A DNA stretch of 64,000 nucleotides from Prorocentrum cordatum (Eukaryota), in assembly GCA_963575745.1 (NCBI GenBank), contig CAUYUJ010000002.1, positions 1,488,001 through 1,552,000 of the forward strand, in the 5' to 3' direction. How positions within the stretch are numbered: position 1 is the stretch's first letter; every line of letters starts with the position of its first letter. Below the pieces are notes generated by a model. It was not told the DNA's origin, did no database searches, and saw only the letters and a program-made list of their open reading frames with translations. The translations under genes were made by a program, and so were the position numbers. Positions 7,161 through 50,273 of the stretch are shown one piece after another.

Positions 7161-7164
7161 TGGG

Positions 7165-8460: not shown

Positions 8461-8767
8461 CTATTTCCGAACTTATGCAACTTCAAGAATCCAAAACTCC
8501 GTTCCCAGCGCCGTTCCGGAGGCCGCGGTACCTCGTTATTTATCGAGCGAACGCGTTTACTTCGTTTTTCCCGGAAAGGGCGTAGGCCCAGGGTTCTCTT
8601 TTAGTATGTAAACAATGTCCCCGTGCCCAACTTGAAGGAGGCCGGCGGATTCTTTCCCTGATAAACATCGAAGTCGAAGGAGGCCGGCGGATTAAAATTT
8701 GAGGATGTCTCAGGCGAAACGCTTGTTTTTGAAATCCCGATCGATAAATCACAGGGTGCGGGACACC

Positions 8768-9435: not shown

Positions 9436-9457
9436 CGCCTTGGTTGAGTGGTTGCCT

Positions 9458-9605
9458 GTCGTCGTGGAATTTTTCGTGGGGTGTGTCGTGGAATGTTTCG
9501 CGGGGTGTCTCGTGGAATGTTTCGTGAGGTGTCTCGTGGAATGTTTCGTGAGGTGTCTCGTGGGATGTTTCGTGAGGTGTCTCGTGGGATGTTTCGTGAG
9601 GTGTC
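9458..9605. repeat. 24-bp minisatellite
   Basis: (GTCTCGTGGAATGTTTCGTGAGGT)n, about 6 copies. Confidence 0.9.
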
Positions 9606-14569: not shown

Positions 14570-15200
14570 TTCAGCTTGGGGCCACCATGTTAGATACCCC
14601 CCTGGGTGGCCTGGACACGTGAAACCACATGGTCCCAGCTCAGGGCCACAAGCTTAGATACCACCCTGGGTGGCCTGGACACGTGAAACCACGTGGTTCC
14701 AGCTCGGGGCCACAATGGTAAATACCTTTCTGGGTGGCCTGGGCACGTGAAAACCCGTGGCTCCAGCGCGGGACCACCATGTTAGATACATCAATGGGGA
14801 ATATATGGTAAATAACCAGCCGAAGAATGTGTCCCATGCTGTTACACATCTGGTGTCGATGTTGTGAGATTGTCGGGCTCTTGTGGCCCCCCACGCTGGG
14901 GGCTGCCAGACAACCGCATGTTCGCTGCCGACAACCAACTGCAGACAACCGCTCATGTGCCCCCCCCACGCTGGGGCCCGCACACGAAGTAACACGTGGT
15001 TTTCACCTCGGGGCAACCATGCTCGGTACCCCTCTGGGTAGCCTGGACAAGTGACGACACATGGTTCCAGCTCGGAGTCACCAGCTTAGATACCCCCCTG
15101 GGTGGCCCTCGACGCGCAAAAGCACGGGGTTCCATCTCGGGGCCACCACATTTGAGACCCGTCCGGGTAGCCTGGACAAATTGAAGCGCGTGGTTCCAGC
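14570..15200. repeat. ~60-bp tandem repeat (also ~1.03-1.16, 16.66-16.86, 21.4-21.65 kb)
   Basis: TTCCAGCTCGGG(A/G)CAACCATGTTAGATACCCCCTGGGTGGCCTGGACACGTGAAA units. Confidence 0.85.
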
Positions 15201-18200
15201 GAGGGGTAGCAGGCAACCATCTTAACATGATCGACCCACGAACCCGGAAAGGAATATAGAAATGTAAGACATGGCAACGTTTCAAAGACACCTGATTGGG
15301 CGACGGGCAAATGCAATGCTTAGTGTATCGACCTTGATGTACCGTGCCGAGGGCTGTGCTGTGCTGTGCCGTGCTGAATTGCGATGTGCCATGCCACGAG
15401 TGTGCTCTATAGCGTTGTGGATCGAGTCCTCCTTTGCATCCGAGTCCTGACCGAACTGATCTGGATCTTAAGCTCGAGCTGCCTAAGCAAATAACTAGTA
15501 GCTGCCCCAGAGCTGATTGACAAGGGAACATGCCAGGAGGACGCGCCGCAGAACGTCCCAAGGGACGCGCCAGGCGACGTGCCAGGGGACGTGCCATGGG
15601 GTCGCACCGCGGGACGTGCCAAGGGGACGCGCTACGGAATGTGCCAATGGACGTGCCACGGGACGTGCCAAGAGACGCACCAAGCGAGGTGTCAGGGGAC
15701 GTGCCACGGGGACGCACCGCGGGACGTGCCAAGGGGACGCGCTACGGAACGTGCCAATGGACGTGCCACGGGACGTGCCAGGGGACGCGCCGCGCGACGT
15801 GCCAGGGGGACTCGCCACAGGACGCGCCACGGAACGTGCCAAAGAACGTGCCAAGTTGCAATGCTGAATGAGTGTATCGATCTTGATGTAATGTGCCGCG
15901 GGCTGTGCTGTGCTGTGCCGTGCTGAACTGCGATGTGCCACGTGACGAGTTTGCTCTATAGCGTTGTGGATCGAGTCCTCCTTTGCATCCGAGTCCTAAC
16001 CGAACTGATCTGGATCTTAAGCTCGAGCTGCCTGAGCACGTAGTAGCTGCCCCAGAGCTAATTCACGGGGGGCATGCTAGGAAGACGCGCCGCCGAACGT
16101 CCCAAGGGACGCGCCAGGCGACGTGCCAGGGGACGTGCCATGGGGACGCACCGCGGGACGTGCCAAGGGGACGCGCTACGGAACGTGCCAATGCATTATG
16201 AACGTGCCACGGGACGTGCCAGGGGACGCGCCGCGCGACGTGCCAGGGGGACTCGCCACAGGACGCGCCACGGAACGTGCCAAAGAACGTGCCAAGTTGC
16301 AATGCTGAGTGAGTGTATCGATCTTGATGTAATGTGCCGCGGGCTGTGCTGTGCTGCGCCGTGCTGAACTGCGATGTGCCATGCCACGAGTGTGCTCTAT
16401 AGCGTTGTGGATCGAGTCCTCCGTTGCATCCGAGTCCTGACCGAACTGATCTGGATCTCAAGCTCGAGCTGCCTGAGCACATAGTCCACGAAGTAGCTGC
16501 CGCAGAGCTAATTGAGAAGGAATTGTGCCAGGAAGACGCGCCGCGGAACGTTCCAAGGGACGCGCCAGGCGACGTGCCAGGGGACGTGCCACGGGGACGC
16601 ACCGCGAGACGTGCCAAGGGGACGCGCTACAGAACGTGCTGGGGACAAGCGTCGTGTTGGTGGCCTGGACACGTAAAAACACGGTGCCAGCTCGGGACAA
16701 CCATGAGAGATACCCCCTGGGTGGCCTGGACACGTAAAACACGTGGTTCCAGCTCGGGACAATCATGTTAGAGATCTCCCTGGGTGGCCTGAGCATGAAA
16801 AAACACGTGGTTCCAGCTCGGGACAGCCATGTTAGATACCCCTCTGCGTGACTTGGATACGCTGAATTCGCGCTCCCGCTCGAGACATCCTCACAACGTC
16901 TTCCCTGGAGAGGCCCCCAAAGCGCACCCCCCTGTTCAGAGCAAGAAGCCATCACTTTTCCTCATAATTCGGCGTTGGGCCCGACGCCATGTTAGATACC
17001 CCAACTCTGCAAAACCAGCGTTTCGCTCGAGACGTCCTCAACAAATTCTGAAAAGCAAGCGTTTCGCTCGAGACATCCCCCAACTCTGCAAAACCAGCGT
17101 TTCGCTCGAGACATCCTCAACAAATTATGAAAAACAAGCGTTTCGCTCGAGACATCCTGTCAAAATCCCAAGAAATCTAAATTCCTGCGCGCGGGACGCG
17201 GCACGCGCGAGACATCCTCAGAATTCCTGCGCGAGGAGCGCTTTTCCGTGTCGCGGTCGGCTCTGCAAAACCAGCGTTTCGCTCGAGACATCCTCAACAA
17301 ATTCTGAAACCAAGCGTTTCGCTCGAGACATCCCCAACTCTGCAAAACCAGCATTTCGCTCGAGACATCCTCAACACATTCTGAAAAACAAGCGTTTCGC
17401 TCGGGACATCCTCAAAAATAATTCCGCCGGCCCTACTCCCGCACGTAATTTATCGCAGAATAATTTCGCCGGCCCAAGTCGCAGGGGGGCCAGGGGGTTA
17501 ACCTACTAAAAGAGAACCCTGGGCCCGCGCCCTTTCCGGGAACATGGTCGACCCACGAACCCGGAAAGGAATATAGAAATGTAACGCATGGCAGCGTTTT
17601 TCAAAGACACTTGATTGGGTGACGGGCAAGTGCAATGCTGATTGTATCGATCTTGATGTACCGTGCCGAGGGCTGTGCTGTGCTGCACCGTGCTGAATTG
17701 CGATGTGCCATGCCGCGGTTGTGCTCTATAGCGTCGTGGATCGAGTCTTCCTTTGCATCCGAGTCCTGACCGAGCTGATCTGGATCTGAAGCTCGAGCTG
17801 CCTGAACACATAGTAGCTGCCCCAGAGCTAATGGACAGGGGAACATGCCAGGAGGACGCGCCGCGAAACGTCCCAAGGGATGCGCCAGGCGACGTGCCAG
17901 GGGACGTGCCATGGGGTCGCACCGCGGGACGTGCCAAGGGGACGCGCTACGAAACGTGCCAATGGATGTGCCACGGGATGTGCCAGGGGACGCGCCACGC
18001 GACGTGCCAGGGGGACTCGCCAAAGGACGGCACACGGAACGTGCCAAGGAACGTGCCAAGTTGCAATGCTGAATGTATCGACCTTGATGTACCGTGCCAA
18101 AATCAGTGCTGTGCTGCGCCGTGCTGAATTGCGATGTGCCATGGCGCGATTGTGCTCTATAGCCTCGTGGATCGAGTTCTCCTTTGCATCCGAGTCCTGA

Positions 18201-19194
18201 CCGAACTGATCTGGATCTTAAGCTCGAGCTGCCTGAACACATAGTAGCTGCCCCAGAGCTAATGGACAGGGGAACATGCCAGGAGGACGCGACGCAGAAC
18301 GTCTCAAGGGACGCGCCAAGCGACGTGCCAAGGGACGTGCCATGGGGACGCACCGCGGGACGTGCCAAGGGGACGCGCTACGGAACGTGCTGGGGACAAG
18401 CGTTTCGCTCGAGACATCCTGTCAAAATCATCTGAATTCCTGCGCGCGGGACGCTGCACGCGCGAGACATCCTCGGAATTCCTGCGAGCGGGACGTGAAA
18501 ACAAGCATTTCGCCTGAGAAATCCTTTGAATTCTGGCCCCCCACAAGGCCACCGCTCGAGACATCCTCCAATTTTGCAAAACCAGCGTTTCGCTCGAGAC
18601 ATCCTCAACAAAGTATGAAAAACAAGCGTTTCGCTCGAGACATCCGGTCAAAATCCCAAGAAATCCAAATACCCGCGCGCGGGACGCGGCACGCGCGAGA
18701 CATCCTCAGAATTCCTGCGCGAGGGGCGCTTTTCCGTGTCGCGGTCGGCTCTGCAAAACCAGCGTGTCGCTCGAGACATCCTCAACAAATTCTGTTACCA
18801 AGCGTTTCGCTCGAGACATCCCCAACTCTGCAAAACCAGCGTCTCGCTCGAGACATCCTCAACAAATTCTGAAAAACAAGCGTTTCGCTCGAGACATCCT
18901 CAAAAATAATTTCGCCGGCCCACCTCCCGCACGTAATTTATCGCAGAATAATTTCGCCGGCCCACCTCCCGTCGAAACCGGGGGGTAAACCAACTAAAAG
19001 AGAACCCTGGGCCTTTGCCCTTTCCGGGAAAAACGGAACGAAGTGCAGACGCGCGCGTCGTCGCGCGCGCATGCCGAAATCCTTCAAAACCCATCGGTTT
19101 TGGAAGGATTTCAAAATCGTGCGTCCCAAAAACCTACAAAATCAAAAGGGCTCGCAGCACGGATTTTCAACAAAAGCGTGCGCGCGCGTTCTTG

Positions 19195-19730
19195 CGTCGT
19201 CGTCCTCGTCGTCGCCGTCCTCCCTCCTCCCGCGTCGTCGTCGTCGTCGTCGCCTACGTCGTCCTCTGTCTTTCCTCGTGTTCGTCGTCGTCGTCCTCTT
19301 TGGCGTCGTGGTCGTTTCCGTCGTCGTTGTCGCCGTTGTCGTCCTTCCTCCTGGTCCCTCGTCGTCGTCGTCCGTCGTCGGCGTCTCGTCGTCGTCCCTC
19401 CTATTTCGTCGCCGTCGTCGTCGTCGTCGTTGTCGTCGTCGTCGTTGTCGTCGTCGTCGTCGTCGTCTTCTCTCCTTCCTCGTCGTCGTCGTCGGCGTCG
19501 CCGTCCATCCTCCTTTTTCGTCGTTCGTGTCGTCGCCGTCCTCCCTCCTCCCTCGTCGTTGTCGTCGTTGTCGTCGTTGTCGCCGTCGTCGTCCTCCCTC
19601 CTCCCTCGTCGTCTTCTTCGTTGGCAACGTCGTCGTCGTCGGCGTCGGCGTCGGCGTCGTCGTCGTCGAAGTCGTCGGAGACGTCGTCGGTGTCGTCGTA
19701 GTCGTTGTCGTCGGTGTCGTCGTAGTCGGT
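19195..19730. repeat. (TCG)n microsatellite
   Basis: Degenerate GTC/TCG tract. Confidence 0.95.
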
Positions 19731-21847
19731 CTTAAAGGTTTGCAAACCAAGTTGCGGGCGGGCGGGTGAGATGTTTGCAAGAGCGTGGGATATGTCAAAT
19801 CATGAGTAAAAATCAGTTGCGCAACAGAGATCACACCAAATATTGCATCACGCAGACTGCACACCATTGACTGGGCAACATATATCGCACCACGTAGGTT
19901 ACACGGGACAGATGGCACAACGCATCAGATGCACCGAGTATGTTGCACAACGTCGAACGCACCACATAGGTTCCCCTTTTTGAAGGAGCACCGGGGGTCA
20001 ACGGGGCATTTTTCTGCATTGCGATCTAAACATGTTCCTGCCTCATCGCCCACCCGAATTATGAATTCATATCACCCCAGCCAGGCCAGCATCGCCCCCC
20101 CCTCCTCTGCAACATGCCAGGAGGACGCGCCGCGAAACGTCCCCAGGGACGCGCCAGGCGACGTGCCAAGGGACGTGCCATGGGGTCGCACCGTAGGCCG
20201 TGCCAAGGGGACGCGCTACGGGACATCCTCAAAATTCCTGCGCGCGGGACGTGGCACGCGCGAGACATCTTCCGAATTCCTGCGAGCGGGACGTGAAAAC
20301 AAGCATTTCGCCTGAGACATCCTCTGAATTCTGGCCCCCCACGAGGCCCCCGCTCGAGACATCCCCAAGTTTGCAGAAACCAGCGTTTCGCTCGAGACAT
20401 CCTCAACAAATTATGAAAAACAAGCGTTTCGCTCGAGACATCCGGTCAAAATTCTAAGAAATCCTGACAAAACAAACGAATTAGTCGAGACATCCTCGAA
20501 ATTCCTGCGCGCGGGACGCGGCCCGCGCGAGACATCCTTGGAATTCCCGCGAGCGGGACACGAAAACAAGCATTTCGCCTGAGACATCCTCTGAATTCTG
20601 GCCCCCCGCTCGAGACATCTCCAAATTTTGCGAAAACCAGCGTTTCGCTCGAGACATCCTCCACAAACTATGTAAAATAAGCGTTTCGCTCGAGACATCC
20701 TGCCAAAGTTCTAAGAAATCCTGACAAAACAAGCGAATTAGTCGAGACATCCTCGAAATTCCTGCGCGCGGGACGCGGCACGCGCGAGACATCCTCGGAA
20801 TTCCTGCGCGCGGGGCGCTTTTCCGAGTCGCGGTCGGGGCTCCAGACCCCGTTATTTTTCGAGGATTCTGCGAAAAACGCTCCGCACCCTCTTTTTTACG
20901 AGGGAAAGCGGGGGTCTGCGGACCCCGTTATTTATCGAGGATCCGAGATGGGGGGCGAACTTTCCTCGAGCGGGCACGCACAAAACGCACTTTTTCTAAA
21001 AAAATCAGCACTTTACCTCGTTATTTATCGCAAATAATTTCGCCGGCGCTTGACCCGTCAGATCCGGGGGTAAACGGCTAAAAGAGAACCCTGGGCCCGC
21101 GCCCTTTCCGGGAAAAAAAACCCTGGGTGGCCTGGACGTGTAAAAAACATGATCGACCCATGAACCTGAAAAAGAATATAGAAATGTAGGACATGGCAAC
21201 GTTTCAAAAACACCTGATTGGGCGACGGGCAAATGCAATGCTGAATGTATCGATCTTGATGTACCGTACCGAGGGCTGTGCTGTGCTGCGCCAATCTGAA
21301 TTGCGACGTACCGTGCCGCGATTGTGCTCTATAGCGTTGTGGCTCGAGTCCTCATTTGCATCCGAGTCCTGACCGAACTGATCTGGATCTTAAACTCGGG
21401 ACAACCATGTTAAACACCTTCCTGGGTGGCCTGGACACGTAAAAGCACGTGGTGCCAGCTCGGGACAACCATGTTAGATACACCCCTGAGTGGCCTGGAC
21501 ACGTTAAAACACATGATCCTTGCTCGGGACAGTCATGTTGGATACCCCCCTTGGTTGGCAGGACATATAGAAACACATCGTTCCAGCTCGGGACAACCAT
21601 GTTAGATACCCCCCTGCGTGGCCTGGATACGCTGAATTTGCGCTCCCGCTCGAGACATCCTCGCATTGTCTTCCCTGGAGAGGCCCCCAAAGCGCTACCC
21701 CCTTTCCTGAGCAAGAAAACATCACTGGGATATGTGTTCGGGTAGCGCTTTTCGACCCCACGTGCGTTTTCTGATAATTCGGCGTTGGGCCCGACGCCAT
21801 GTTGGATATCCCCCCTAGGCGGCCTGGACACGTAAAAACACGTGGTT

Positions 21848-24193: not shown

Positions 24194-27003
<2,810 letters not shown>

Positions 27004-27730: not shown

Positions 27731-28402
27731 CCCACCAGCCCTTTGGGCGACGGTGGTCTAACGAGATTCCTCTTCCCTCTGCCAACAACTCATCGTCCCC
27801 TATGGGGAAGGGTCTACCCCTCCCCCGACCCCCTCCCCTGGACCTGGACGGGGGGATGGTAGCGGGTGGTTGGAGCGCCCTGTTTTCTGACAGTGGGGAG
27901 CTTATTGTTTGACACCGCTCACAGGGATCGCGGCCTCCGAGGGAGGGGGCGCGATCGGGACGTCCCCTCTTTTCACCGACCGCTTCCAAGATGGCCCCCA
28001 AGAGGCCCTCCAAGGCCCCCAAGAAGCTCCCAAGAGCGTTCCAAGACCGCCCCAAGAGGCACCAATATTGCCCCAGGACGGCCCCAGAGGCCCCCAAGAC
28101 GACCCAAAGGGGGTCCACATACGGCTCAAATGGCTTCCAATACGCCCAAGATGGCCTCCAAGAGCGCCAAGATGGCCCCAAGAGAACCCCTGATGGCCCC
28201 ACGATGCCTCCAAGGCGGCCCAAGATGCACCCAAGACGGCCCAATATAGCCTCAGGATGGCCCAAGAGACGACCCCAAGGGGCCTCCAAGACGGACGTTG
28301 TTTATGATTGAATTGCTTGCTGCTACACTTCCCTCATCAAGACAACGTGACCTGGCGGCTGTCTTGGGATGGGCTGGTGGGGATACGCGAAGCGTGAAGA
28401 CT
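27731..28402 (+). mobile_element. Non-autonomous Helentron/DINE-like element, family 1
   Basis: 5' CCCACCAGCCC, 3' GGGCTGGTGGG followed by hairpin ACGC-GAA-GCGT; internal GGCCCAAGA repeats; colinear homolog at 49599-50273. Confidence 0.65.
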
Positions 28403-29025: not shown

Positions 29026-32000
29026 CTAGGACACCCGCTGCATCTTGACGGCCCTGCCCGCCATCTCGAGGAGGCCCGACGGCACGGACTCCTGGATCCC
29101 CAACTTCTTGATCTGCGCCAGCGGGTCCGTGCATTGCTTCCGCATCCTGCTCAAATCGGACTTGTCCGTGTTGGCCGCCACGTACGCCAAAATGCCACCG
29201 TAGTGCGCAGCCCTGGCCATGCGGAACAGCTTCTCACCAAGGTCGATTGCCGTCTTCGTCGGTCCCGAAACCACGTCGTAGAACTTGGCGGCTTTCACCA
29301 TCTGGCTGTGCTTGGAAACCAACTCGTCGAGCATCTTCTTCCGCTGCTCGGGCGAGTACGTGAAGATCGTGTCGCCAGCCGCAGTCACGCAATCCCCGAT
29401 GATGTCGGCGTTGGCAGCGGCAGCGTACCACATCGCACCGTCGGTACCCCCGCCTGCAATGTCCTCCCACTTGTTGGACGCCACATCGTCATCGAAGGCC
29501 TGCTTGTACATGCCCACCACTGCAGTGCTGATGAAAGTGATGTACGCTGGCGTGAGCTCGTCGTCAAGCATGCGCTTCATAGGGTCGGGCGCGCGCTCAT
29601 GCAGCTCGGACCTGATCGAGCTCATGGCCTTCGCAAGGCTGATTGCCTCCGCCATGAGATTAGCCCCAGCCTGCGTCACTGCAAGGTCCCTGTAGGCAGC
29701 GCGGTCCGTACCGAAGTGGTTCTCGAGTCTCTCGAGAAGGCGGGCCTGGTCGAGGGCAGCGCCCACGCATTTTTTCCACTGATCGTACCCCGTCGCCTGG
29801 ACCCAATTGAACCACGAAGCAATAGCATCGCCAATCGCATCCGCCAGGTTAGTAGTGAGGGTGCCTTCGTGCTTGTGGTGGTGGATCGCCTGCTCCACTA
29901 CAATGAACGCCTTGGCGATCACTCTCTGCTTGGCGCTTTCCTTCGTCGAGGGGTCGATGCCTGGGTAGACCTGCTGAGTGAACGTGACCGTCTTTGCCGC
30001 CATGAGGCGCCAGTCGCCACAAGAAGCAACGGCCTCGTGGGAGAAGAACAAGTCCAAGTCATTGAGGTAGGCCGCGGCAGCCTTACCAGTCTCCAGGACG
30101 GGGATGGCGTCGTTGATCTGCTTGAGGGTGTCCGCCCACTCGCCGCCGAACGAGAGGTGGCTGTGAACCGCAACGAACAAGGAGCGCTGGCACCCCCAGA
30201 AGCTATCGATGGCGGCGGAGGAGGATTTGTCCGAATCGATGTCACCGATCGCCCGCTTCACCTTGGCAGCCTCGTCATTCACCTTCGCACGAAAAAGGTC
30301 CTCGAGGATCTGCGCCGAGCCTGGCCGTGACTCCTTCATAAACGTGGAGAGCTCCTTCGCCATTGTGATCAAGCCATTCGTGGTCACGGCCTCACCAGCA
30401 CGCAACGTCGCAATCATGGTGTCGATCATCGGGCGGAGCTTCCGCGTTTGATCCATGTAAGGCTTGAGCTTGGTGACCATTTCCTTCGTAACAGTCTCTG
30501 TCCTCAATGCCGTCGCCAACTGAGTCCGCGGGTCCTTTATGTCACGTTTCGCATCGTTGCGAAGGAGGTCCAGGAAATCGCTCCAATGCTCCACTGGAGA
30601 AAGAGGGTCCATCAGGCAAGCGAGACCTCGAAGGCAAGTGAGGAGCTTGAGAACTGCTTCGACGGCGTCGTCCTCCATCTCCCCAGAATCGGTCCAACGC
30701 TCGATGACGTAGTTGATCATGGCCATGATATTCTGGTAATCCTTCTGGTCCACCAGCCGCGCCATGACGCAGCCTGCGATGAAATGCCGAGTGAAGAAGT
30801 CAATGAACATGAAGGACTTCTCCCTGATGGAACCATCGATCGTGTTGAGCGTGGGGGCCTTCGCGTTGAACTTGAACCTCTCGCCGTCTGCCTCCGTATC
30901 CTGCTGGGCTGCGCCCCCGGCGTCATCGCCAGCGCCGCCGCGCCTGCCCCAAGGCTCCACAACGTCCAAGAAGTGCGTCAACGTGTCGACCTTGCCGCTG
31001 ACAAGCAACGCCGCCGCGTCAGCGCACTCCCTGGTGAGCAGCTTCGTTTTGAAAGGCGTGGGGAAGTCCACCCCATGTTCAATCAGGTCACTCACGATCT
31101 TCTTAAGCCTCTCGATCGGCATGGTGTTCACGTGATCTTTCGGCTGGGATATCTCCTCCGCTAGCTTGCCCATGGCATAGTGCTGGTTGCAGGCGTTCAG
31201 TTCGTTCTTGAGGGTGGTGTCGGAGCTCTTGGCGTCGATCCAGTCTTTCAGCCTCCTGCGTTCCTTGCCCATCTTCTGACCCGAGAGGATGGCGACGATG
31301 TCGTACTTCATGATCGTGTGCTCCCACGCGCTCATGTCGCCAAGGTCGCCACATTGAGAATCTCCGTCGCCAGAGTCGCCGAGCGAGGTCCTCGATGTCC
31401 CATGGCTGATAGTCGACATGCCGCTGCCGAACCTTTGTTTGTTGATGCCCTTGTTGTCGGGCGTCCTCAGCTCCCCAGCCCCAGCGCCAGAGACGTGGCT
31501 GGTGACGTCCTGCACGTCGGGATCCTCATCGTCGCTAGCAGGAACTGGTGGCGGCGGCGACCCGTCGACCAACTGCTGTAGCTTCTTCTGCAGCTCCTTC
31601 ATTGTCAGCGCCGCAGCCATCCTCTTGCGATTAATATTCCACCCAGTGTTGCCCTTGTTCATCGCCTTGGTGACCATACCAGGCTGCTCTTTGCGGTAAT
31701 GCTTGCGCTTATCCAGCTTCGTCCGCTTGGTCGCAAGGGTCGACCTCTTGAAAAACCTGAAGCGCACGTACGGTTGGTTCAAATCCTTCATGAGCACGCC
31801 CTTGAACTTGTCGCCGTTGGGCCCCACGAGGTCTTGAATCTTGAGCCCTGCCTCCGACGGCTCGCGGCCCTGGGCGATCTCCTTGAACTGGGCGACGGTG
31901 AGGCCGACGCAGTCCTGTGATACCTCGACGCCAATGTCGCTGTCAGAGTCGATGCCAACCTCGTCGAAGTCCTTCACCTTCTCACCCCTCTTCACAACGG

Positions 32001-32376
32001 CACTCTCATCGAACCTCTCGTTCGTCTCCTCGTTATTGCGGCACTCCTTGCTCACATCCGAAAACGACCCTTCCACGGCCCACGAATCACGATGAACGGT
32101 GGCGCACTCGAGGCAGGCTGACCCGACGGGGACAGCGTTGCCATGCTCATCGGCCCCAGTCAAAGCCCACGGCTTCATGCTGCCAGGCGTGACACCACAC
32201 CGTTCGCACTTACAAGAGTTCCCCACTGGCTGGCGACCTCGGGTCGGCACCGACGGCCCCGATGCAGACTTGCTGGAGGCCGCCTTCTTCTTCTCTCTAG
32301 GCTGCCGTGGGGCTGACGAGCTGGCCTTCGACTCACAGTCACTAGACGGCTGGCGTTTCGCTTTCTTCCTGACCAT
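29026..32376 (-). CDS. Intronless 1,116-aa hypothetical protein: basic N-terminus, CxxC..CxxC/H Zn-finger-like motif, apparently helical C-terminus
   Basis: 3.35-kb uninterrupted, non-repetitive ORF with strong G/C third-position bias; likely start MVRKKAKRQ at 32376; CERCG...ACLECATVH. Confidence 0.85.
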   Translation of the reverse strand: MVRKKAKRQPSSDCESKASSSAPRQPREKKKAASSKSASGPSVPTRGRQPVGNSCKCERCGVTPGSMKPWALTGADEHGNAVPVGSACLECATVHRDSWAVEGSFSDVSKECRNNEETNERFDESAVVKRGEKVKDFDEVGIDSDSDIGVEVSQDCVGLTVAQFKEIAQGREPSEAGLKIQDLVGPNGDKFKGVLMKDLNQPYVRFRFFKRSTLATKRTKLDKRKHYRKEQPGMVTKAMNKGNTGWNINRKRMAAALTMKELQKKLQQLVDGSPPPPVPASDDEDPDVQDVTSHVSGAGAGELRTPDNKGINKQRFGSGMSTISHGTSRTSLGDSGDGDSQCGDLGDMSAWEHTIMKYDIVAILSGQKMGKERRRLKDWIDAKSSDTTLKNELNACNQHYAMGKLAEEISQPKDHVNTMPIERLKKIVSDLIEHGVDFPTPFKTKLLTRECADAAALLVSGKVDTLTHFLDVVEPWGRRGGAGDDAGGAAQQDTEADGERFKFNAKAPTLNTIDGSIREKSFMFIDFFTRHFIAGCVMARLVDQKDYQNIMAMINYVIERWTDSGEMEDDAVEAVLKLLTCLRGLACLMDPLSPVEHWSDFLDLLRNDAKRDIKDPRTQLATALRTETVTKEMVTKLKPYMDQTRKLRPMIDTMIATLRAGEAVTTNGLITMAKELSTFMKESRPGSAQILEDLFRAKVNDEAAKVKRAIGDIDSDKSSSAAIDSFWGCQRSLFVAVHSHLSFGGEWADTLKQINDAIPVLETGKAAAAYLNDLDLFFSHEAVASCGDWRLMAAKTVTFTQQVYPGIDPSTKESAKQRVIAKAFIVVEQAIHHHKHEGTLTTNLADAIGDAIASWFNWVQATGYDQWKKCVGAALDQARLLERLENHFGTDRAAYRDLAVTQAGANLMAEAISLAKAMSSIRSELHERAPDPMKRMLDDELTPAYITFISTAVVGMYKQAFDDDVASNKWEDIAGGGTDGAMWYAAAANADIIGDCVTAAGDTIFTYSPEQRKKMLDELVSKHSQMVKAAKFYDVVSGPTKTAIDLGEKLFRMARAAHYGGILAYVAANTDKSDLSRMRKQCTDPLAQIKKLGIQESVPSGLLEMAGRAVKMQRVS

Positions 32377-33503
32377 CGCAAGGAAGGGCGCGCCCGCTGG
32401 AGGCCGACCCGCCAAGTGCAGTGCAAAGTGCAGGTGGCACTGCAAGCCTCACATCTGGAACCTTCTAGAGCCCACATGCCTACGGCGAGCGATGGCGAGG
32501 GCAATGCCAGCTCCAAGTGGAACGCCGCCTCCTGGAACCGATTGGCCAGTCCAGGCCCACCCTTCGCGTGCACCAGACCCCACCCCCCCTGGCTAAACAG
32601 TCTTGGGCCCTTCTCATCAGCCCCCTATTGGTCTCGATAGCCTGGGCCTTCCCCAGACGGCCCCGACGCGGCCTATTGCTAGGAGCCCGACAGACGGCTC
32701 TAGATGACACAATACGGCTGCACCCCAGAGCCTACGGATAGCAACGACACCATCGCGCCGTCGGATCGTTTCTGGATGGGCTCTCTTAGGTATGTTGGAT
32801 CGTTTCTGGATGGGCAGCACCTGCGGTCATGGCAACTCCCTTGGATCGTTTCTGGATGGGCGGGTCAGGGGGGGGGGCGAAGCGCTCGAGATCACTAGAA
32901 CGACGCTGTTCGCAACCGCCTGCCCCCCTTTGATGTTTACGTTCTGGGGCATGCGTTGTTCGGGTTGTGGGGTTGGGGCGCCACGCCCTCGAGAGAAGCA
33001 TCGGGGCGAACGCTCTCTGCGGGTGACCCTGGGTGGCTGAGGGGGCGGATGGAGGGGGGAGATGCGGGGGGGAAGCGGGGAGGTGAGCTTGAGGGGGGCA
33101 GATCGCGCCCAGCCGACTGGGATGGCGGAAGAGGCCTGGGGGGAGGGACGAGGGAGGAGGAGAAGGCGGGAGGGACATGGCGGCGAGAAGGGCGGCAGGA
33201 TTGAGGGCGGGGACAGGCAGAATACAAGTGACGCCATGTGCAAAAATAATGCGTTTGATCAAAGTACTCTGGTTGAAGCTGCTGGCCGATGGCGGACCAT
33301 GCCGTCTCCCCTACACGCTGCGCTCTCTGGCGGCCACAACGTGCAATTGCTGCAACACCTGAAGCAGCGATCGGCATGGCGATTGCAACACGAACTGTAA
33401 AACCACCTATGTGCCGCCCGCGCGTGGTCGGCGACCTCGCGCGCTCGAGAGGCTGGCGCGTGCTGCCCAAAGTGCGGCTCTCAAACTGGCCACGCTCGAC
33501 TCA

Positions 33504-42704: not shown

Positions 42705-45700
42705 TTACCTGAACGTATCGCACTCGCTATCCTCGCCGTCAACCTTGTCTCTCTCTTTTGACAGAAGAAGGCGGCCATCAGCCATGGCCTTCAACGCATC
42801 ACGGGCCGCCCTCCTCCGTAGATACGAGGGGCGGCAATGAAAAATGTGCTCCCTGGCCCCGACATAGTCATCGTGTGACAGGAGCCACGCCGCCAAGAAA
42901 CCAGCAGGCCTGCCGACCCAGCGCCTGGCTCCCGCGAAGCACTGCCGATTGACTTTGCACGCGGCCCTGCCGCCGTGGTCCACGCAGTCGCACAGCGCGA
43001 ACATGCGGCGGCTGGCCGCATACCAGACCAAGGTCCCGCCACCGAACCGCATGCTGATCGAGTCGCCGTACTCGTCAGGCGCGGCATGGCCAGCGCGAGC
43101 GGCAGGGGGGGCATCGTCCTCGCTCTCGCCCTCGCCCCCGCCACTCGCCTCAGCATCGCTACTTGATGACGAGGACGAGGACGAACTGGACGACGAAGAC
43201 GCTGAGCTCGACGAGGAGGCGGGCTCCTCCCCGCCCGCGCTGCCCTCGTCTTCGCCCACGTCGCCGCCGCCCTCTGCGCCAGAGTCGCTGCCGTCGTCGT
43301 CGATGGCGGCCAAGGCGCCCCAGCTGCCGCGCGGCTCTCTCGCAGCAGGCGGCTCCCAGATAAGCCGCAGCAAGCCGTCGCCCAAAAGCGATGTATTCAG
43401 GCGCCGTGGGCGCACGGCATCGAGGACGCCGTCCTTGTCCTTCGCAATCCAGAAACAAGCGTGCCATGTCAATTGTAAATCCAAGTCCCCCAGAGCCCGC
43501 ACGTCAATACTCTCGGAGTACGCATAATCAAGCATGACGTCATTCTCGAAAGCAGCCCGCCCCTCGCGAACATCCAGTGAAAAGCCATCTCCTGCCACCA
43601 GTATGCTGAAATCAAGGCGCCACGGCCGCTGGTGAACGTCACCGATCAAGAGCCACTTGGACTGGTGCGAGCCTGCATCGCAACGTTCATGGTCTTCCAG
43701 TGCCAGCGGGGGATCGCGCCCTATCAGGAGGACAACAACCCGAGCAGCCAATAAACTAGATCGCTCAGTCGAGCCAGCAGGGCACGCTGCCTTGGTCGCA
43801 GAGACAAGGTTGCCGATGCACCTGGCAATCTTGCGGCCCTGCCCACTGCAAATGCACATCCCAGCATCATGGCACTTGCGGTGTGTCAGTGGCGGCTCTC
43901 TGCTCCATGCAACGGTGCGGACCGGCAAATTGGCTGAGCGCCAGGCTTCGGAAGCTGCCTTGAATAACGTCTTCACTGGGCGCGTTGCTGGGTCCAAGGC
44001 CGCAAGGCGGTGAGCCACGTTCGCCAAGTCAGGCGGTGACCACATAACCCTATGGTACGAAGGTTCAGGTTGTGGGTCCGACCAACTTCGCTGCAGCATG
44101 TCAGTATCCATCACGGGCGCGCATCTCTCTAAGTATTCCTGCAAACCGCCTGTGCTGAGCTGGTACGCCTCTAACCTTCTGCGCTCCCTATCAGATATCC
44201 GCCTCGATAACATGGATGCGGCTCGCCACGCCTTCTTGCAATGGCGCAAGCCATCGATTGGAACGCACTCTGCGGTGTTGCCCAAGTCGCCGCTGAATGC
44301 AACTTCACTGGACACTCTGCGGGCGGCCAACTGGAAAGGGTTGTCCACCGTGTCTCCCAAGCGCTGCGCCTCGGACTCAATGCGGTCGGCAAGCTGGGCC
44401 AACGTGATGTCCCGAGCAGCGTGGCTGGCGACAGGCGCACCGCCGTCGTCCCCGATTGCAGTTTCCAGGGCATTCATGTCATCAGCACGTTGCTTCAAGG
44501 CGCGCTTGTCAGGGCCTGACAGCGCTTGGTAAGCCTCCGAGCACTCAGAGAAGGACGTGCACGCACGGGCCCGCAGCTGGTCACTACAGTAAACGGACCA
44601 CGCGCTGTGGAGACGTCTCCTGCGCCTCCCATCTGGCCTCTCAGGGCGCGCAAGGGTCGCGCCGCCACCGTCGACCTCAACTCGCTGCCCTGGCAACTTC
44701 CGCATCTCAGAATGCAACTTGTCAGCGTTCAACCGCTCGACGCTCACCCGCTTGGACTGCGCGCTCAAGCCGATGAGCCGACGCCGCGACGTAGCGTGCT
44801 TAGCTTCAATCTGCACTGTCTCCTCCCTCGCATACGTGGCCGTGGCTCGCAAGTGGGCAAGCAAGTCGGCTGACAGCGGGTCCCCGCCGTACGCCTCGAG
44901 AATGGCGTCCGACCACTGGTCTCGCACACACGGTCTGTCATCGAGTATTTCGGCTGCCACTCTCTCGCGCTCGTCGCCGAGCAGACCGAACAACTTGAAG
45001 GGGTAAAACCTATGAATACCGAACCCCACCCCCCTTACCCTGGGCGCGGCGGGCGTCGGCGACAAAGGCTTCTGGGGGGGGGGCGATTCCGCCAGCCCCC
45101 ATGGGCCATGGACCCCGGGCGGATCAACGCGACACCTGCGCCTCAGATTCTCTGTTCGATTGAGTGCCCGCCGTCCTACCAAACCCGCGCCGCGGACCGC
45201 GACGGCCCCAACACGAACCCAATATAGCAACACGTTGCCCGAGATGGCATCCAACATTGCTCCATGACACCTTCAAATGGCGGCGCAACCCTTTCCATAG
45301 CGCGCCAGTGCGTGCCACGCCTTCCGCGGCCGCATCAGCTGCCGCAGGCGTAGTCGATGGGCTGGGGCTGGCGGGGGCGCGAAGCGTCAAGAATTTAGTT
45401 CATTGGTTTGCAAACGATACGGTGGACACGTGGAGCGGCTGGCGGGGAGGGAAGACGGGCAAAAGGATGATACGGGCGATATGTGGACGGAAAGGTGGAG
45501 TGAATGGCGGTGGGTCGCGGCTATCCGCGCATGCCGCCGCGCCTCCCCCTTCTGTTGTTCGGCCTTCCAGCCGACGCCCGCCGCCCCTAGTCCACATCCC
45601 CACCCCCGTGGCTGTGTGGCGAACTCCGAGAAGGGGTTCGGTTCGGTAGATTGCTTGAACCTGTGTCTCTCCATCAACGCGTTGACCCTGCAGCAAGACT

Positions 45701-48700
45701 TCGCAGCAATCCTACCAGCCCTCTGGGCGTGGGTGGTCTAGGTCGCCCGCCCTGTTCAACCCCTACTCCTCTCCTGTCGGGGCGGGGTGCGATCCCCCCT
45801 CTACCCCCTTCTCCCTGGGCCTGGATGGCGCTCCATCGCGATGGATTGGGGCGACCTTTGGATCCAAGGATGGGTGCGTAAGAGTGCTCAAGATGCCGCA
45901 GCGACCGCCCAAGATAGCCATCCCTGGCCCAATATCGCCCACGACATGTCTACAAGTGGCCCCCACCTCGCCTCAATGCGGCCCCAGGACGCAACGCGGC
46001 AACGATGTCTCCCAAGGACGCGCCCGAGAAGCCAACTTCGCACCACAACCTTAGGGACAACCATGTGCGCGTGTGCTTCCTTTCTTGTCTGTTCGTCTCT
46101 TCTGGCGCCTCCAGCTAGCACTAAGATGACACCAGCGAGGCAACGTGCGGGCCCGAAGAGAGGTCCGAGGCGGGCCCGAGTGCGCTCAAGGGCGCACCAA
46201 GAGCGGCCCATAGGGCCATATGGCACTATGCGGCGACGGTTCGGGCCTGCGGGGGGCGGGGAGGGATGAAACCAGATAAATGCTCGCAGCTTTGTTTGAT
46301 CGAGGGTACCCCTCACACATACGTCCCATGCCCTCCCAGGGTGCCCCAAGACCCAAGATGGCCGTGCAGCGTACAGCGCCCCAATACGCCCCTAAGAGAG
46401 CCTTGGGGGGGGCCCAAGAGAGCACCGAGAAACCTGTACCCTGCAAACACCCTACGGGGAAACCACCAGAAAACATAGGAGGTGGAGGGAGGAGGCGGAG
46501 ATGTGCGAGAGCAGGAGGCCGCGTGGGCCCGAGCACCACGACCGTCGGCTTTCGTCGCAAAGGTGGCTGGTTTGGGATGTGCTGGCGGTGACACGCGAAG
46601 CGTACAGACTTGAAAACACCCACGCCTCCCTCTCGCCAGTGCGACCAATGGACGGTATGTGCGACCACAGCGAATCATCCATCATTACCACGTGCATGTC
46701 ACGAATGAACTCAGCATCGCGCCTCGCTCCGAAGACCTCAAGCATCCTATATGTGGGACGTGGGCCGCCGCCATCGCCCGCATCCAGTGCACGGACGGCC
46801 TGTGTGCGGTCCCACTCTTCCGATGCCAATCTGAGCAATCCTAACATCGCCGCGCAGGGCGAGCATGGCTTACGACAGTTTCTTCCCCTGCGGGGATATG
46901 TAGAGACTTACATGCGCCAAACCTTGGCGCGCCTGGGCGCGGCGGGCGGAGGGCGGCAGGAGCGTCCAAGATACCCCCATATAGCTCCAAGACTTGCGTG
47001 GGAATGCACACGACATCACCGTGCCACTTCAATCATGCCCAACGTGGCTCAAGGTAGCCCCAAGCCCCAACGGCACGGGCACAGACGATGCCGCGGCACG
47101 CAAACGCACGCATAAGGTAACCAACGGTCGTATTGGCACGCGCAACTACACCCGCCAACACTCACTATGCATGATGTGCTATTATTGTTGCTCCCCCTTC
47201 CCCCCCGCCGACCGTCCCCAAATTATCAAATTGCTGGCCAAGGCGATAACTCTAATTACACAGTGGGCCCCATACCCTCGCAACCTTGGGCCCGACCAGG
47301 GGAACTCGTGACCAGGACAACTCGAATGGGCCACGCATGGGCAATCTCATTAGCGAGCCTGGGCGTGTCGCGAAGCGTCACTGATTTGAACATGTACGCA
47401 CGATGAGGCTCCATGAGGGATCTAATTGCAAAGACGTCTGCGAATGGACAGTCGTACTCCCTCGTGGCCCAAAGGGGCGCTTCTCGCCGATGCCCGTCGG
47501 CGGCCGCGCGAGCGGCAGCCACTGGATCAGCAACGCCGCCAGAGCCAATCCCCAATTGCGACTCGCCTGAAAAAAAACAAAGAAGAGATGGGGGGCGGAG
47601 ATGAGGGGGGTGAAGAGGATGGCGGGTTTAGGGAGGCAGCCTGGTGCAGCATAATCACCAGTAGTACCAGCTCGCCTGCAGAACGTCACGAAGGCTTCAG
47701 CGAAAATATTGTGAACCGCCAACAAAACACCGATCCAGGACGGCGTGACCTCAGACCCAACCCAATTCCGACTAGGGAACGATTTAGGACCATCTCCAAC
47801 AAGCGCTTTCACGAACGTTGTCCGAAACAAGCGCTTGATGTACGCATCTGGCTTGTCAGATGTCGTGAAAAAGTGAACCCGTTCCGTATCATCCCAAGAA
47901 CCATTGGCCAACGACAATATGACAGTCCTGCGCTTGACCGCACTGGTATCGTGGAGGCCTGGCAACAAACGATACAACACATCTGCGTTCTTGGCAACAA
48001 CTCTGGGGTGCGGCAGCGTGTCCCTGACAATGTTGAGCCGCCTCATGACGATGTCTCCAACGATCTTGCGGAATTTCAGCATGCAACTGGGGCCCTTGAG
48101 TGCCAGCGCTGTGTGCGTGAGGGAGCTGATGAGGCCTGAACGAAGGGAACACGCATCATGTTTCGCAGTCGCTGCCCTGTGGACGTGGCACCTGTTGTGT
48201 AAAGCCAACTGCCCAGCATCCAGAACGCTGAAAAACCTCTCAGCCCCGGCGATCGCACCGTCGCCATCCGTGCACACAACCCTCTGCCTGTGCTTGAACA
48301 ACCTCGACACTCCAGACGTATCCAAGCCACTCGCCTCCACCGCGGCTGCGTAGTTCTCGCCTTTGCCAGCCGTCATAACCTGGATCGGCACGAGCACGTT
48401 GAAAGAAACCTCAGTGTATGATCCACCGATCTTGAACAACATAGTGTACAACCATTCTGTGTTCAACAATGGCAATTTTGACACATGAGTTGGTTCTCTG
48501 CCGCCGTCCATGTCGATCTGAGCTCTGGAAAGGTCGTGTCGCTCCAACGCGGTTCCAACTACTAGTTCCAAGGATGCGTCGTCGTTGTCAAAACATGCGG
48601 CTGTCAGCTTCGTCTCATCAAACCTGCACTGTTGAGAAAACAACATGCACCCGCCACCTGCACTTGTAACCCTCCCAACGCAAGCATTCATCATGCTGAT

Positions 48701-49447
48701 GGCCATTGCTCGTTCTGTCAACATTGCCAGCGCCATAAACCGTGACTTACATCTTGCGAACACCGACCTGCTAACTCCAGCAGCTTGGGCACTGACACTT
48801 TCACTCATCATATGGTTCGCCAGTTTGCCACGGATCGCATTGATCGTATCTGTTGCCACTTTGTCGAACATACCTGGTCTGTCAGGGTCCTCTCTTATGA
48901 CGCCAAGCGCAACCAACAATGGGTTATACAGGAGGCTACCGCGACGCTGCCGTTGAACATGCAGGAGGCCCCGTAAACGTTCGCAGTCCTGATCTAAGGC
49001 ACCATCTGGCGGCCCGACTGGACCAGCAACAACAATCTGCATCTCATCGGGCACGACGTCGCCAACGGCACCCTCGATGTCGGCTGGCTCGCCGTCGCCT
49101 TCAGAGGCGCCCTCGCCGTCGGCTGGCTCGACGTCGCCGCGCGGAGCTGCCAGCGGCGCGGCGATGTCCTTGGCCGCCAGAGCAGCACCAACGGGTCGCC
49201 ACAGCTCCTGGGCGGTGGCGCGCCGCCGACGCCGCTTAGCCCCCCTGTCCAGCGGAGGCCCGTCCCGCGCGGGCTCCTCGGCGCCGTCCTCGACAGGGCT
49301 CAACGAGCCTGCTGCTCCCGCGAGAGCCTCCCAGCCGCCCGCGTCGCCATCCGCGAACGCAGCCCAGCCGCCGCTGGGCGGCGCATCGGCCTCGCTCGGC
49401 GATGGGCTGGACGGCCCGACGAAATGCGCCCACCCCTCCAATGGCAT
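42705..49447 (-). CDS. Putative spliced DDE transposase, ~1,523 aa. Exons approximately 49447-47641, 47566-47387, 46840-46612, 45711-45661, 45009-42705
   Basis: Joining ORF pieces gives one continuous frame (4,572 nt). Motifs: RFDETK (~48618), VCTDGDG (~48267), RCHVH (~48185), TVQIEAKHA (~44806), HMG-box-like SAWSVYC..FSECSEAYQALSGPDKRALK, KCHDAGMCIC, C-terminal CDCVDH..C..GRPAGFLAAWL..H. Introns 1 (47567-47640, AG|GC..TTTCAG|G) and 4 (45010-45660, AG|GT..TAG|G) are clean; donors of introns 2 and 3 are uncertain; an AG|GT just before the stop could mean a further exon. Confidence 0.72.
45711..46610 (+). mobile_element. Family 1 Helentron-like insertion forming transposase intron 3
   Basis: CCTACCAGCCC...GCTGGCGGTGACACGCGAAGCGTACAGACT; precise removal (900 nt) at T|T restores the frame WVFS-IAAKS. 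Confidence 0.7.
46840..47385 (+). mobile_element. Degenerate family 1-like insertion forming transposase intron 2
   Basis: Right end CGCGAAGCGT plus 7 nt, left end CCTAACATCGCC; precise removal (546 nt) at T|T restores YMFK-LLRLASEEW. Confidence 0.55.
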
Positions 49448-49598
49448 GGAGGGGCTGACGCCTGAGCCAAAATGGCTACGGATGTGCCAAAGCAACAGAA
49501 CCTCTTGGAGAATTTGCAAGGCTTCTAATACCCCCGTTCAATGCAATCAGTCTTCGGAGGCTTCTATTCAATCAATACACGGGCGACTCTATCGTTAT

Positions 49599-50273
49599 CC
49601 CACCAGCCTTTTGGCGACAGGTGGCCTAGATGCCTCTTCCCTCTTCCAACAACCCCTCTTCCCATTCAGGGAAGGGTTTATCACTGCCCCCTTCCCCGTC
49701 CCACCTGGGCGGGCGAGGGGGCCGCGCGTAGTTAGTTAGAGCGCACCTTTTCGGACCATGGGAATGCTATTTTTGCCACCCTCACACGGGTCGTGGCCTC
49801 CGAGGGGAGGGGCATCGATCGGGGCGCCCCCTCTTTTCACCGACCGCTTCCAAGATGGCCCCAAAAATGCCTTCCACGGCTCGCAAGGGCCCCCAAAGAG
49901 AGATTAAGGACCGCTCCAAGAAGCCCAGACATGGCCCCATGACTGCCCCTGAGGCCCCCAAGACTGCCTTAAGAGGGCCCAAAGACAGTGCAAATTGCCT
50001 CCAAGACGCCCAAGGTGGCCTCCAATACGGCCAAGATGGCCCCAAGAGAGCCCAAGATGGCCCAATGTCTCCAAGACGGCCCAATATGCACCCAAGACGG
50101 CCCAATATAGCCCAAAGATGGCCCAAGACGGCCAGAGACGACCCCGACAGGCCTCCAAAACGGATGTGGCTCACTTTTGGATTGTTGCTCGCTGCTACAG
50201 CCCCTTCATCAAGGCAGCTCGCCTGGCGGCTGTTTTGGGGTGGGCTGGTGGGGATACGCGAAGCGTGAAGAGT
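49599..50273 (+). mobile_element. Non-autonomous Helentron/DINE-like element, family 1
   Basis: Same ends and internal sequence as 27731-28402; T|T flanks, no TSD. Confidence 0.65.

What the first reader, a model, noticed from the sequence alone, without database searches (positions are those of the whole stretch)
45711..47386. Helentron-like insertions apparently converted into introns of the transposase gene
Seen: both inserts (900 and 546 nt) sit in T|T sites without TSD, end 7 nt after a GCGAAGC mini-hairpin, and their precise removal restores the frame. Both in-gene copies read CCTA at the left end, giving TAG|G on the coding strand, whereas both intergenic copies (27731, 49599) read CCCA with no AG. 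Inference: the acceptor was gained or selected so that the inserts are spliced out. In-frame donors exist (CT|GTACGC for intron 3; C|GC or AAG|GT for intron 2), or non-canonical AA donors are used. This would be an intron-gain route by rolling-circle elements.
Basis: partly seen in the sequence, partly recalled or inferred. Interest (0 to 1): 0.8.

Follow-up and report, generated by a model that had tools for sequence, protein, structure and literature searches.

The report
Helentron-like inserts in transposase-like gene
Two copies of a small rolling-circle-type transposon sit precisely inside the reading frame of a large transposase-like gene of a marine alga-like genome, but nothing available shows that they are spliced out as introns, and transposon-to-intron conversion of this kind is already in print.

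Summary
Removing them exactly gives a protein that aligns without gaps to 15 full-length homologues. With two intergenic copies and a partial one they form a family with the structural marks of Helitron-like element 2 (Helentron/Helitron2): an 11-12 nt terminal inverted repeat, a CGCGAAGCG hairpin after the right repeat, a 7-nt tail, insertion after T, no duplication. At least 32 related 5' ends occur in metagenome contigs.

The intron reading is not shown. No RNA run was listed and no whole genome is held. CCTA is a rare variant of the terminus (2 of 32 outside copies), and both of those lie outside coding sequence. No GT-AG pair restores the ancestral protein. In-frame GT/GC-AG pairs are plentiful by chance (63 and 67). 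Differences between strains are 19 nonsynonymous to 6 synonymous, as expected without selection.

Most likely these are plain nested insertions in a drifting transposon gene. The intron reading keeps about one chance in four. Helitron-derived introners are already published.

The parts
45711..46610 (+). Insert 3: non-autonomous Helitron-like-element-2 (HLE2) copy, 900 nt, antisense to the host gene. 5' end CCTACCAGCCC, hairpin 46593-46603, tail ACAGACT.
46840..47385 (+). Insert 2: diverged copy of the same kind, 546 nt, antisense to the host gene. 5' end CCTAAC..., hairpin 47369-47377, tail CACTGAT.
27731..28402 (+). Intergenic copy, 672 nt. 5' CCCACCAGCCC, right repeat GGGCTGGTGGGG, hairpin, tail GAAGACT, followed by A.
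49599..50273 (+). Intergenic copy, 675 nt, 77% identical to the 27731 copy. Its 5' end lies 151 nt upstream of the host gene's start codon, in divergent orientation.
45024..45394 (+). Fifth hairpin-bearing 3' end (GGGCTGG..CGCGAAGCGT CAAGAAT | T) inside intron 4. The 5' limit is uncertain.
47668..49447 (-). Host gene exon 1 (start codon at 49447). It holds the RNase H-like core, residues about 107-275 of the folded stretch.
47567..47667 (-). Intron 1, 101 nt, CTG|GTACTA ... pyrimidine run ... CAG|G. Inferred from the frame change and the sequence signals.
47386..47566 (-). Host gene exon 2.
46611..46839 (-). Host gene exon 3, between the two inserts.
45661..45710 (-). Host gene exon 4.
45010..45660 (-). 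Intron 4, 651 nt: a 643-nt element with inverted-repeat ends plus one copy of an 8-bp flanking repeat (AACCTATG / AACCTGTG). Canonical AG|GT ... AG|GT restores the ancestral ..ERHRFYPF...
42705..45009 (-). Host gene exon 5, with the stop codon at 42705-42707.

Best explanation
The two inserts are ordinary nested insertions of a non-autonomous rolling-circle-type transposon of the Helitron-like-element-2 kind (Helentron/Helitron2). Each copy entered after a T (mostly AAT) and before a T, without duplicating the target, antisense to a 1514-codon gene. That gene encodes a large RNase H-fold, transposase-like protein. It looks like a young or drifting mobile-element gene: its frame is still intact, but it is not under detectable purifying selection. 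The CCTA reading of the left end is a C-to-T variant of the family's conserved CCCACCAGCCC terminus. The data can be explained without the inserts being spliced out. What is shown: anatomy, precise insertion, family membership on structure, lack of constraint. What is inferred: rolling-circle mechanism (no Rep/helicase partner seen), and absence of functional splicing.
For: - Anatomy. There are 5 hairpin-bearing 3' ends, all on the + strand. An 11-12 nt terminal inverted repeat sits directly before the hairpin in the copies at 27731 and 49599 and in L016, L049 and L073, and is degraded in insert 3. The tail is 7 nt and ends in T. The next base is T in 4 of 5 window copies and 3 of 4 complete metagenome copies. 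No duplication is present. These are the features given for HLE2 in PMC11417382 (passages read).
- Head-to-tail junctions. An X8 contig joins hairpin + CAAGAAT + AATCCTACC (table 5c). L088 reads ..CGTCAAGAAT|CCCACC.
- Family size. The bin that holds the 34-nt 5' terminus has a summed word depth of 4538, against about 15 for its neighbours, in X1. In the metagenome scan, 32 clear and 7 borderline 5' ends were found among 117 loci.
- Precise insertion. The joined protein aligns gap-free with 15 homologues across both junctions.
- No constraint on the host. Of the 25 exonic differences among the 40 listed for X1-X3, 19 are nonsynonymous and 6 synonymous. The neutral expectation is 3.15:1; omega 0.3 gives P = 0.005. 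X3 contigs carry +1 and -2 indels in exon 5 (table 4).
- CCTA is not tied to coding sequence. Both CCTA copies outside the window lie outside coding sequence.
- Splice sites. No GT-AG pair gives the ancestral sequence. 63 (insert 3) and 67 (insert 2) in-frame, stop-free GT/GC-AG pairs exist, so having one is not informative.
Against: - Both in-gene copies carry the rare T: 2 of 2, against 2 of 32 in metagenome copies and 0 of 2 intergenic window copies. It places TAG|G exactly where the gene's two credible introns have CAG|G and TAG|G. At a 6% base rate, two of two would be about 0.4% before allowing for hindsight. The base rate in this genome is unknown.
- The 4542-nt frame is fully open although three mobile-element insertions are shared by contigs of three runs.
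- Intron 4 shows that a transposon insertion in this same gene has canonical splice sites at exactly the right places.
- The selection test rests on 25 differences out of an incomplete list (44 more not shown). Part of them come from contigs of depth 2-4.
- No Rep/helicase gene was found, so the rolling-circle mechanism rests on structure alone.
Confidence: 0.6

Rival explanations
1. The two antisense copies are removed from the transcript as spliceosomal introns. The acceptor TAG|G was made by the C-to-T change in the element's 5' terminus. The donors are GTACGC (insert 3, leaving 2 extra codons) and a GC or upstream GT donor (insert 2, adding or removing 5 codons).
For: - Both in-gene copies have CCTA; 30 of 32 outside copies and both intergenic window copies have CCCA.
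- The acceptor form YAG|G matches introns 1 and 4 of the same gene.
- In-frame partners exist: 46605/45712 (+6 nt), 47401/46841 (-15 nt), 47371/46841 (+15 nt).
- The whole 1514-codon frame is intact.
- Intron 4 is a transposon-derived interruption with canonical sites.
- Helitron-derived introners exist in fungi and in a dinoflagellate (PMC12130899).
Against: - The donors are not at equivalent places in the two copies, and 63 and 67 in-frame pairs arise by chance.
- Every canonical option changes a block that is gap-free in 15 homologues.
- There is no pyrimidine tract before either proposed acceptor.
- CCTA copies elsewhere are not in coding sequence.
- The host gene evolves as if unconstrained, so selection for a splice site has no clear basis.
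- Only two cases, in one gene.
Confidence: 0.25
2. The family is not a rolling-circle element but a cut-and-paste element with a 3-bp target duplication (AAT). The hairpin and the inverted repeat would then be simply its ends.
For: AAT precedes the 5' end in 3 of 4 window copies, and the base at -3 is A in 27 of 32 metagenome copies (the two bases at -2 and -1 were fixed by the search pattern). All 4 complete metagenome copies end in AAT, and L049 repeats 8 nt (CATAAAAT).
Against: In the window the flank and the tail differ in 4 of 4 copies with both ends (AAT/ACT, AAT/ACT, AAT/GAT, TAT/AGT). The inverted repeat is asymmetric: terminal on the left, but followed by hairpin and tail on the right. 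That is the HLE2 layout. Head-to-tail junctions share a single AAT (L088). Likeness between the target and the element's 3' end is what a rolling-circle nickase that cuts both would give (inference from IS91-type elements, recalled).
Confidence: 0.1
3. The inserts are removed exactly, either by a non-canonical splice (AA...AG, shifted one base) or by excision at the DNA level.
For: A one-base shift gives AA...AG borders for both inserts with lengths of 900 and 546 nt. It changes only TCA to TCG (silent) and AAA to AGA (Lys to Arg) (read).
Against: AA donors are not a known spliceosomal class (recalled). No contig in four runs skips either insert (table 5: no joints). There is nothing else in its favour.
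Confidence: 0.03

Closest known systems
Helitron-like element 2 (Helentron / Helitron2), non-autonomous derivatives such as DINE-1 (PMC11417382 passages read; PMC4067079 seen in the search listing only)
   Same: Short terminal inverted repeats of 11-12 nt. [quoted passage not shown] Insertion between T and T. No target duplication. Head-to-tail junctions. No coding capacity.
   Different: No Rep/helicase (with or without endonuclease) partner was found, so the link to that transposase clade is untested. The 5' terminal 32-34 nt is conserved across contigs of very different base composition (GC 0.36-0.62). The target looks like AAT|T, not just T|T.
Helitron-derived introners (Gozashti et al. 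2025, PMC12130899: main-text passages and supplementary table sd07 read). Listed there: Nemania serpens fam1, Suillus subalutaceus fam5/6, Polarella glacialis fam15.
   Same: A rolling-circle-type, duplication-free element sitting inside coding sequence, whose exact removal restores the frame.
   Different: Those families were called from annotated introns with GT/GC-AG sites in 4 to 49 copies. Here there are two copies in one gene, no transcript evidence, no canonical pair that restores the protein, and antisense orientation with a mutation-made AG.
Introners that take their splice sites from the target duplication (Huff, Zilberman and Roy 2016; recalled, not read here)
   Same: Intron 4 of the same gene: inverted-repeat ends, an 8-bp flanking repeat that contains AGGT, and donor and acceptor in the two repeat copies.
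   Different: That applies to intron 4, not to the two inserts of the finding, which make no duplication.

Membership tests
Helitron-like element 2 (Helentron/Helitron2) | Short terminal inverted repeats (about 11-18 nt) at both ends | tested here: met
   CCCACCAGCCC against GGGCTGGTGGG: 10-11 of 11 in the copies at 27731 and 49599 and in L016, L049, L073 and L079. About 8 of 11 in insert 3. Not recognisable in insert 2 (read by eye). Definition from PMC11417382.
Helitron-like element 2 (Helentron/Helitron2) | [quoted passage not shown] | tested here: met
   ACGC-GAA-GCGT lies directly after the right repeat in 5 of 5 window copies. A GCGC-GTC-GCGC variant occurs in L049. The energy is weak.
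Helitron-like element 2 (Helentron/Helitron2) | Insertion between T and T without target duplication | tested here: met
   The left flank ends in T in all copies (partly forced by the pattern for the metagenome loci). The right flank starts with T in 7 of 9 copies with a 3' end. Exact removal of 900 and 546 nt restores collinearity. A 3-bp AAT duplication is not fully excluded.
Helitron-like element 2 (Helentron/Helitron2) | Autonomous partner encoding a Rep-helicase transposase | not testable with these tools
   No whole genome is held. None of 132 ORFs from 27 family loci hit a Rep or helicase family. The 9 long window ORFs tested had no Pfam hit.
Introner (intron-generating transposon) | Copies are removed from transcripts as spliceosomal introns | not testable with these tools
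   No run on record as RNA was listed, and the laid runs are contigs. No protein in the large collection contains exon 3.
Introner (intron-generating transposon) | Many near-identical copies located in introns of unrelated genes | tested here: not met
   Only two in-gene copies, both in one gene. Among the 32 metagenome copies, none was found inside a recognisable coding sequence. In the two with a Pfam-supported neighbouring gene, the copy lies 126 and 146 nt upstream of the start codon. The flanks were often too short to judge.
Introner (intron-generating transposon) | Splice sites carried by the element or taken from the target at fixed places | tested here: inconclusive
   The acceptor TAG|G is at the same place in both copies. 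The donors are not at equivalent places. 63 and 67 in-frame GT/GC-AG pairs arise by chance.
DDE/RNase H-fold transposase (host gene) | RNase H-like catalytic fold with conserved acidic residues | tested here: inconclusive
   The model has mean pLDDT 83. The best Foldseek rows are ISCth4 transposase, RNase HI, integrases and Hermes, at E 0.008-0.03. VIA-align gives Z 5.2-7.2 over residues about 107-275, with Argonaute PIWI, integrases and Hermes (Z 5.8, 126 aligned, rmsd 3.5). Nearly invariant residues are D118, E119, D235, D237 and H264. There is no Pfam hit.

The most novel reading that the evidence does not exclude
A Helentron/Helitron2-type non-autonomous element, inserted antisense into coding sequence, has been turned into a working intron in two steps. 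A single C-to-T change in its conserved 5' terminus makes the acceptor TAG|G. A nearby GT or GC in or beside the 3' hairpin then serves as donor, at the price of a few extra or lost codons. This would be a caught-in-the-act case of intron birth from a rolling-circle element in a marine green-alga-like genome.
Probability: 0.25. Interest if true: 0.6.

Novelty: new member of a known kind. Interest (0 to 1): 0.35.

Why it matters
If the inserts were shown to be spliced, they would add a marine protist example to the few published Helitron-derived introners. They would also be an unusually clear one: it would be the Helitron-like-element-2 type, antisense, with the acceptor created by a point mutation in the element's terminus.

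As it stands, three things are of value:
- A well-delimited, apparently undescribed non-autonomous family whose 32-34 nt 5' terminus is conserved across many marine metagenome contigs.
- A large unnamed family of about 1600-residue RNase H-fold proteins (787 hits in the representative library).
- A neighbouring intron in the same gene with the anatomy of a transposon that supplies its own splice sites from the target duplication.

Tried and rejected
- Whole genome of the window: none held. So no genome-wide count of CCTA against CCCA ends and no search for paralogues.
- RNA evidence: no RNA holder was listed among 12 runs.
- Four runs laid as contigs (X1, X2, X3, X8) gave no joint across either insert. 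A missing joint in contigs is not evidence of absence.
- Word-indexed protein searches with exon 1 and exon 3 ('longer' lengths) found nothing.
- Pfam found nothing for the host protein, for 8 homologues or for 9 other window ORFs.
- The ESM Atlas gave only leads under 0.9: DUF659, ZBED1 RNase-like, P-element RNase H.
- The scan of viral contigs for the 5' terminus gave 0 matches.
- Earlier findings of this scan: nothing by place, by sequence or by words.
- The introner table of PMC12130899 has no entry for Pyramimonas, prasinophyte or Cymbomonas.
- Considered and dropped: that the copy at 27731 lies in a gene. A 384-residue frame spans it after removal, but it is low-complexity and unconvincing.
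- Considered and dropped: that the 8-nt repeat CAGGCGAG flanking intron 1 marks a 109-nt excision. That frame runs into a stop (read).
- The first window-wide repeat listing was swamped by simple repeats and did not help.
- My first coordinate for the end of the 49599 copy (50274) was one base too long. The analogous end is 50273.

Full report
**What is in the sequence**

The window is a eukaryote-like stretch with 58.5% G+C. A long gene lies on the minus strand between 49447 and 42705. Its two big open frames have no Pfam hit. A full HMMER search of 1.84 billion representatives found 787 relatives at E up to 0.001: 253 up to 1e-10 and 19 up to 1e-30. Many are full-length proteins of about 1600-1700 residues. 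Those have no Pfam hit either (8 of 8 tested).

tblastn of five of them against the window placed the conserved blocks. Frame reading then gave five exons:
- 49447-47668
- 47566-47386
- 46839-46611
- 45710-45661
- 45009-42708, followed by the stop codon

Together they make 4542 nt, or 1514 codons, with no internal stop.

**The two inserts**

Insert 3 is 45711-46610 (900 nt). Insert 2 is 546 nt, but CCTA starts at 46840 and the copy ends at 47385.

Each insert is preceded by ..GCAAT and followed by T. Each ends 7 nt after a hairpin ACGC-GAA-GCGT. Neither has a duplicated flank.

I joined the exons in a script and aligned the product with 15 full-length homologues. There is no gap within 10 residues of either junction:
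- ..EPHRAYMFK|LLRLASEEW.. against ..EPHRGYVARLLFQAGGEW..
- ..AWVFS|IAAKSCC.. against ..TMAFIMLSRSAC..

So exact removal gives the ancestral protein.

**The family**

CGCGAAGCGT occurs five times in the window, always on the + strand, against 0.21 expected. The sites belong to the two inserts, to copies at 27731-28402 and 49599-50273, and to a fifth 3' end at 45394 inside intron 4.

The two intergenic copies are 77% identical over about 690 nt. Insert 3 shares only 30 nt at the 5' end and 49 nt at the 3' end with them. Insert 2 shares nothing that BLAST finds.

The 5' end CCCACCAGCCC is repeated in inverted form (GGGCTGGTGGG) directly before the hairpin. A short terminal inverted repeat, a stem-loop after the right repeat and insertion between T and T is the layout given for Helitron-like element 2 (Helentron/Helitron2) in PMC11417382 (passages read).

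Laying contigs of four runs on the gene gave three results:
- The bin with the 34-nt 5' terminus had a summed word depth of 4538 in X1, against about 15 beside it. It was 312 in X2, 189 in X3 and 2276 in X8.
- The flanks of those contigs differ (table 7).
- One X8 contig joins hairpin, CAAGAAT and the 5' terminus head to tail (table 5c).

Of these, 32 are clear family 5' ends and 7 are borderline. They come from contigs of G+C 0.36 to 0.62. Four hold complete copies of 795-1244 nt with the same repeat, hairpin and a tail ending in AAT.

No Rep or helicase was found in 132 ORFs of 27 family loci. The mechanism is therefore inferred from structure only.

**The host gene**

A model of residues 190-640 of the first frame, built on 40 sequences, has mean pLDDT 83.
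- The best Foldseek rows are all RNase H-fold proteins, but weak: ISCth4 transposase, RNase HI, integrases and Hermes, at E 0.008-0.03.
- VIA-align against 48,161 chains gives Z 5.2-7.2 over residues about 107-275. The hits are Argonaute PIWI, integrases and Hermes (Z 5.8, rmsd 3.5, 126 aligned).

'Transposase-like' is thus plausible but not proven.

The closest relative by identity is a 154-residue fragment, 83% identical. It comes from a EukProt set named Pyramimonas sp. CCMP1952. Full-length homologues sit as single frames on contigs of 5.5-7 kb.

**Does the evidence support splicing?**

Direct evidence could not be had. No genome is held, no RNA holder was listed, and no protein in the large collection contains exon 3. 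The indirect evidence is as follows.

For the intron reading:
- Both in-gene copies read CCTA. Both intergenic window copies and 30 of 32 metagenome copies read CCCA.
- On the coding strand this gives TAG|G, the form seen at intron 1 (CAG|G) and intron 4 (TAG|G).
- The whole frame is open.
- The inserted state is shared by contigs of X1 (all four junctions), X2 (the insert 3 left junction) and X3 (the insert 2 left junction) (table 8).
- Intron 4 of the same gene is a 643-nt element with inverted-repeat ends and an 8-bp flanking repeat, AACCTATG/AACCTGTG. Its AGGT supplies a canonical donor and acceptor that restore ..ERHRFYPF.. exactly.

Against it:
- The two CCTA copies outside the window are not in coding sequence. 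L047 lies 126 nt upstream of the start of a C-type-lectin frame. L055 lies in a low-complexity tandem repeat.
- No GT-AG pair restores the ancestral sequence. The smallest canonical options add 2 codons (insert 3) or remove or add 5 codons (insert 2), in blocks that are gap-free in 15 homologues.
- The proposed donors are not at equivalent places in the two copies. A plain enumeration finds 63 and 67 in-frame, stop-free GT/GC-AG pairs, so such pairs carry no weight.
- Of the 40 listed differences between the window and contigs of X1-X3 (44 more were not shown), 25 fall in exons. 19 are nonsynonymous and 6 synonymous. The site ratio is 3.15, and omega of 0.3 or less is rejected at P = 0.005.
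- X3 contigs have +1 and -2 indels in exon 5, at low depth (table 4).

A gene that drifts gives selection no hold on a splice site. An intact frame can simply mean youth.

**Verdict**

The inserts are real, precise insertions of a non-autonomous Helitron-like-element-2-type family into a transposase-like gene.

The general idea is not new. PMC12130899 reports that about 1% of confidently classified introner families are helitrons (main-text passages). Its table sd07 lists Nemania serpens fam1, Suillus subalutaceus fam5/6 and Polarella glacialis fam15 as rolling-circle/Helitron introners. The same table has no entry for Pyramimonas or prasinophytes.

Noticed in passing
window 45010-45660 (minus strand): Intron 4 of the host gene is a 643-nt element with inverted-repeat ends: ATACCGAACCCC / GGGGTTCGGTTCGGTAG, and an inner 21-nt pair that is 90% complementary. 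It is flanked by an 8-bp direct repeat, AACCTATG/AACCTGTG. The repeat's AGGT gives a canonical donor and acceptor that restore the ancestral protein exactly. This is the anatomy of an introner that takes its splice sites from the target duplication. It also holds a fifth hairpin-bearing 3' end of the family.
   Followed up: partly
window 49447-49599; L008; L047: In the 3 loci where a gene could be recognised next to a family copy, the element's 5' end points away from the gene. It lies 151, 146 and 126 nt upstream of the likely start codon (host gene; FHA-kinase; C-type lectin). Possible reasons are a preference for promoters or an outward promoter in the terminus. The start codons are inferred.
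   Followed up: partly
window 27731-28402, 45711-46610, 46840-47385, 49599-50273: All four window copies with both ends defined have lengths divisible by three (672, 900, 546, 675), and so does intron 4 (651). Only 1 of 4 complete metagenome copies does (812, 795, 1244, 1234). Unexplained. The two intergenic copies are related, so the cases are not independent.
   Followed up: no
L088, L091 and run X8 (table 5c): Head-to-tail junctions, with the 3' tail directly followed by the 5' terminus. This is as expected for tandem copies or circular forms of a rolling-circle element.
   Followed up: no
metagenome loci L001-L117: The 32-34 nt 5' terminus (CCCACCAGCCCTCTGGGCGACAGGTGGTTTAG) is nearly invariant in contigs of G+C 0.36 to 0.62, often with very A+T-rich flanks. 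The family is either widespread in one group with patchy composition or has moved between hosts.
   Followed up: no
window 29029-32448 (minus strand): A 1140-residue open frame with a normal-looking protein sequence, no Pfam hit and no likeness to the host-gene family.
   Followed up: partly
window 1700-21500 and 24200-27000: A long array of units of about 431 nt (14-16 copies, 60-98% alike). Large CTA/GTC-type trinucleotide arrays. CCAAGA(C/T)GGCC-like repeats both inside and outside the element copies.
   Followed up: no
window 47562-47569 and 47671-47678: A perfect 8-nt direct repeat (CTCGCCTG on the + strand) brackets the 101-nt intron 1. Removing 109 nt does not keep the frame, so its meaning is unclear.
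   Followed up: partly
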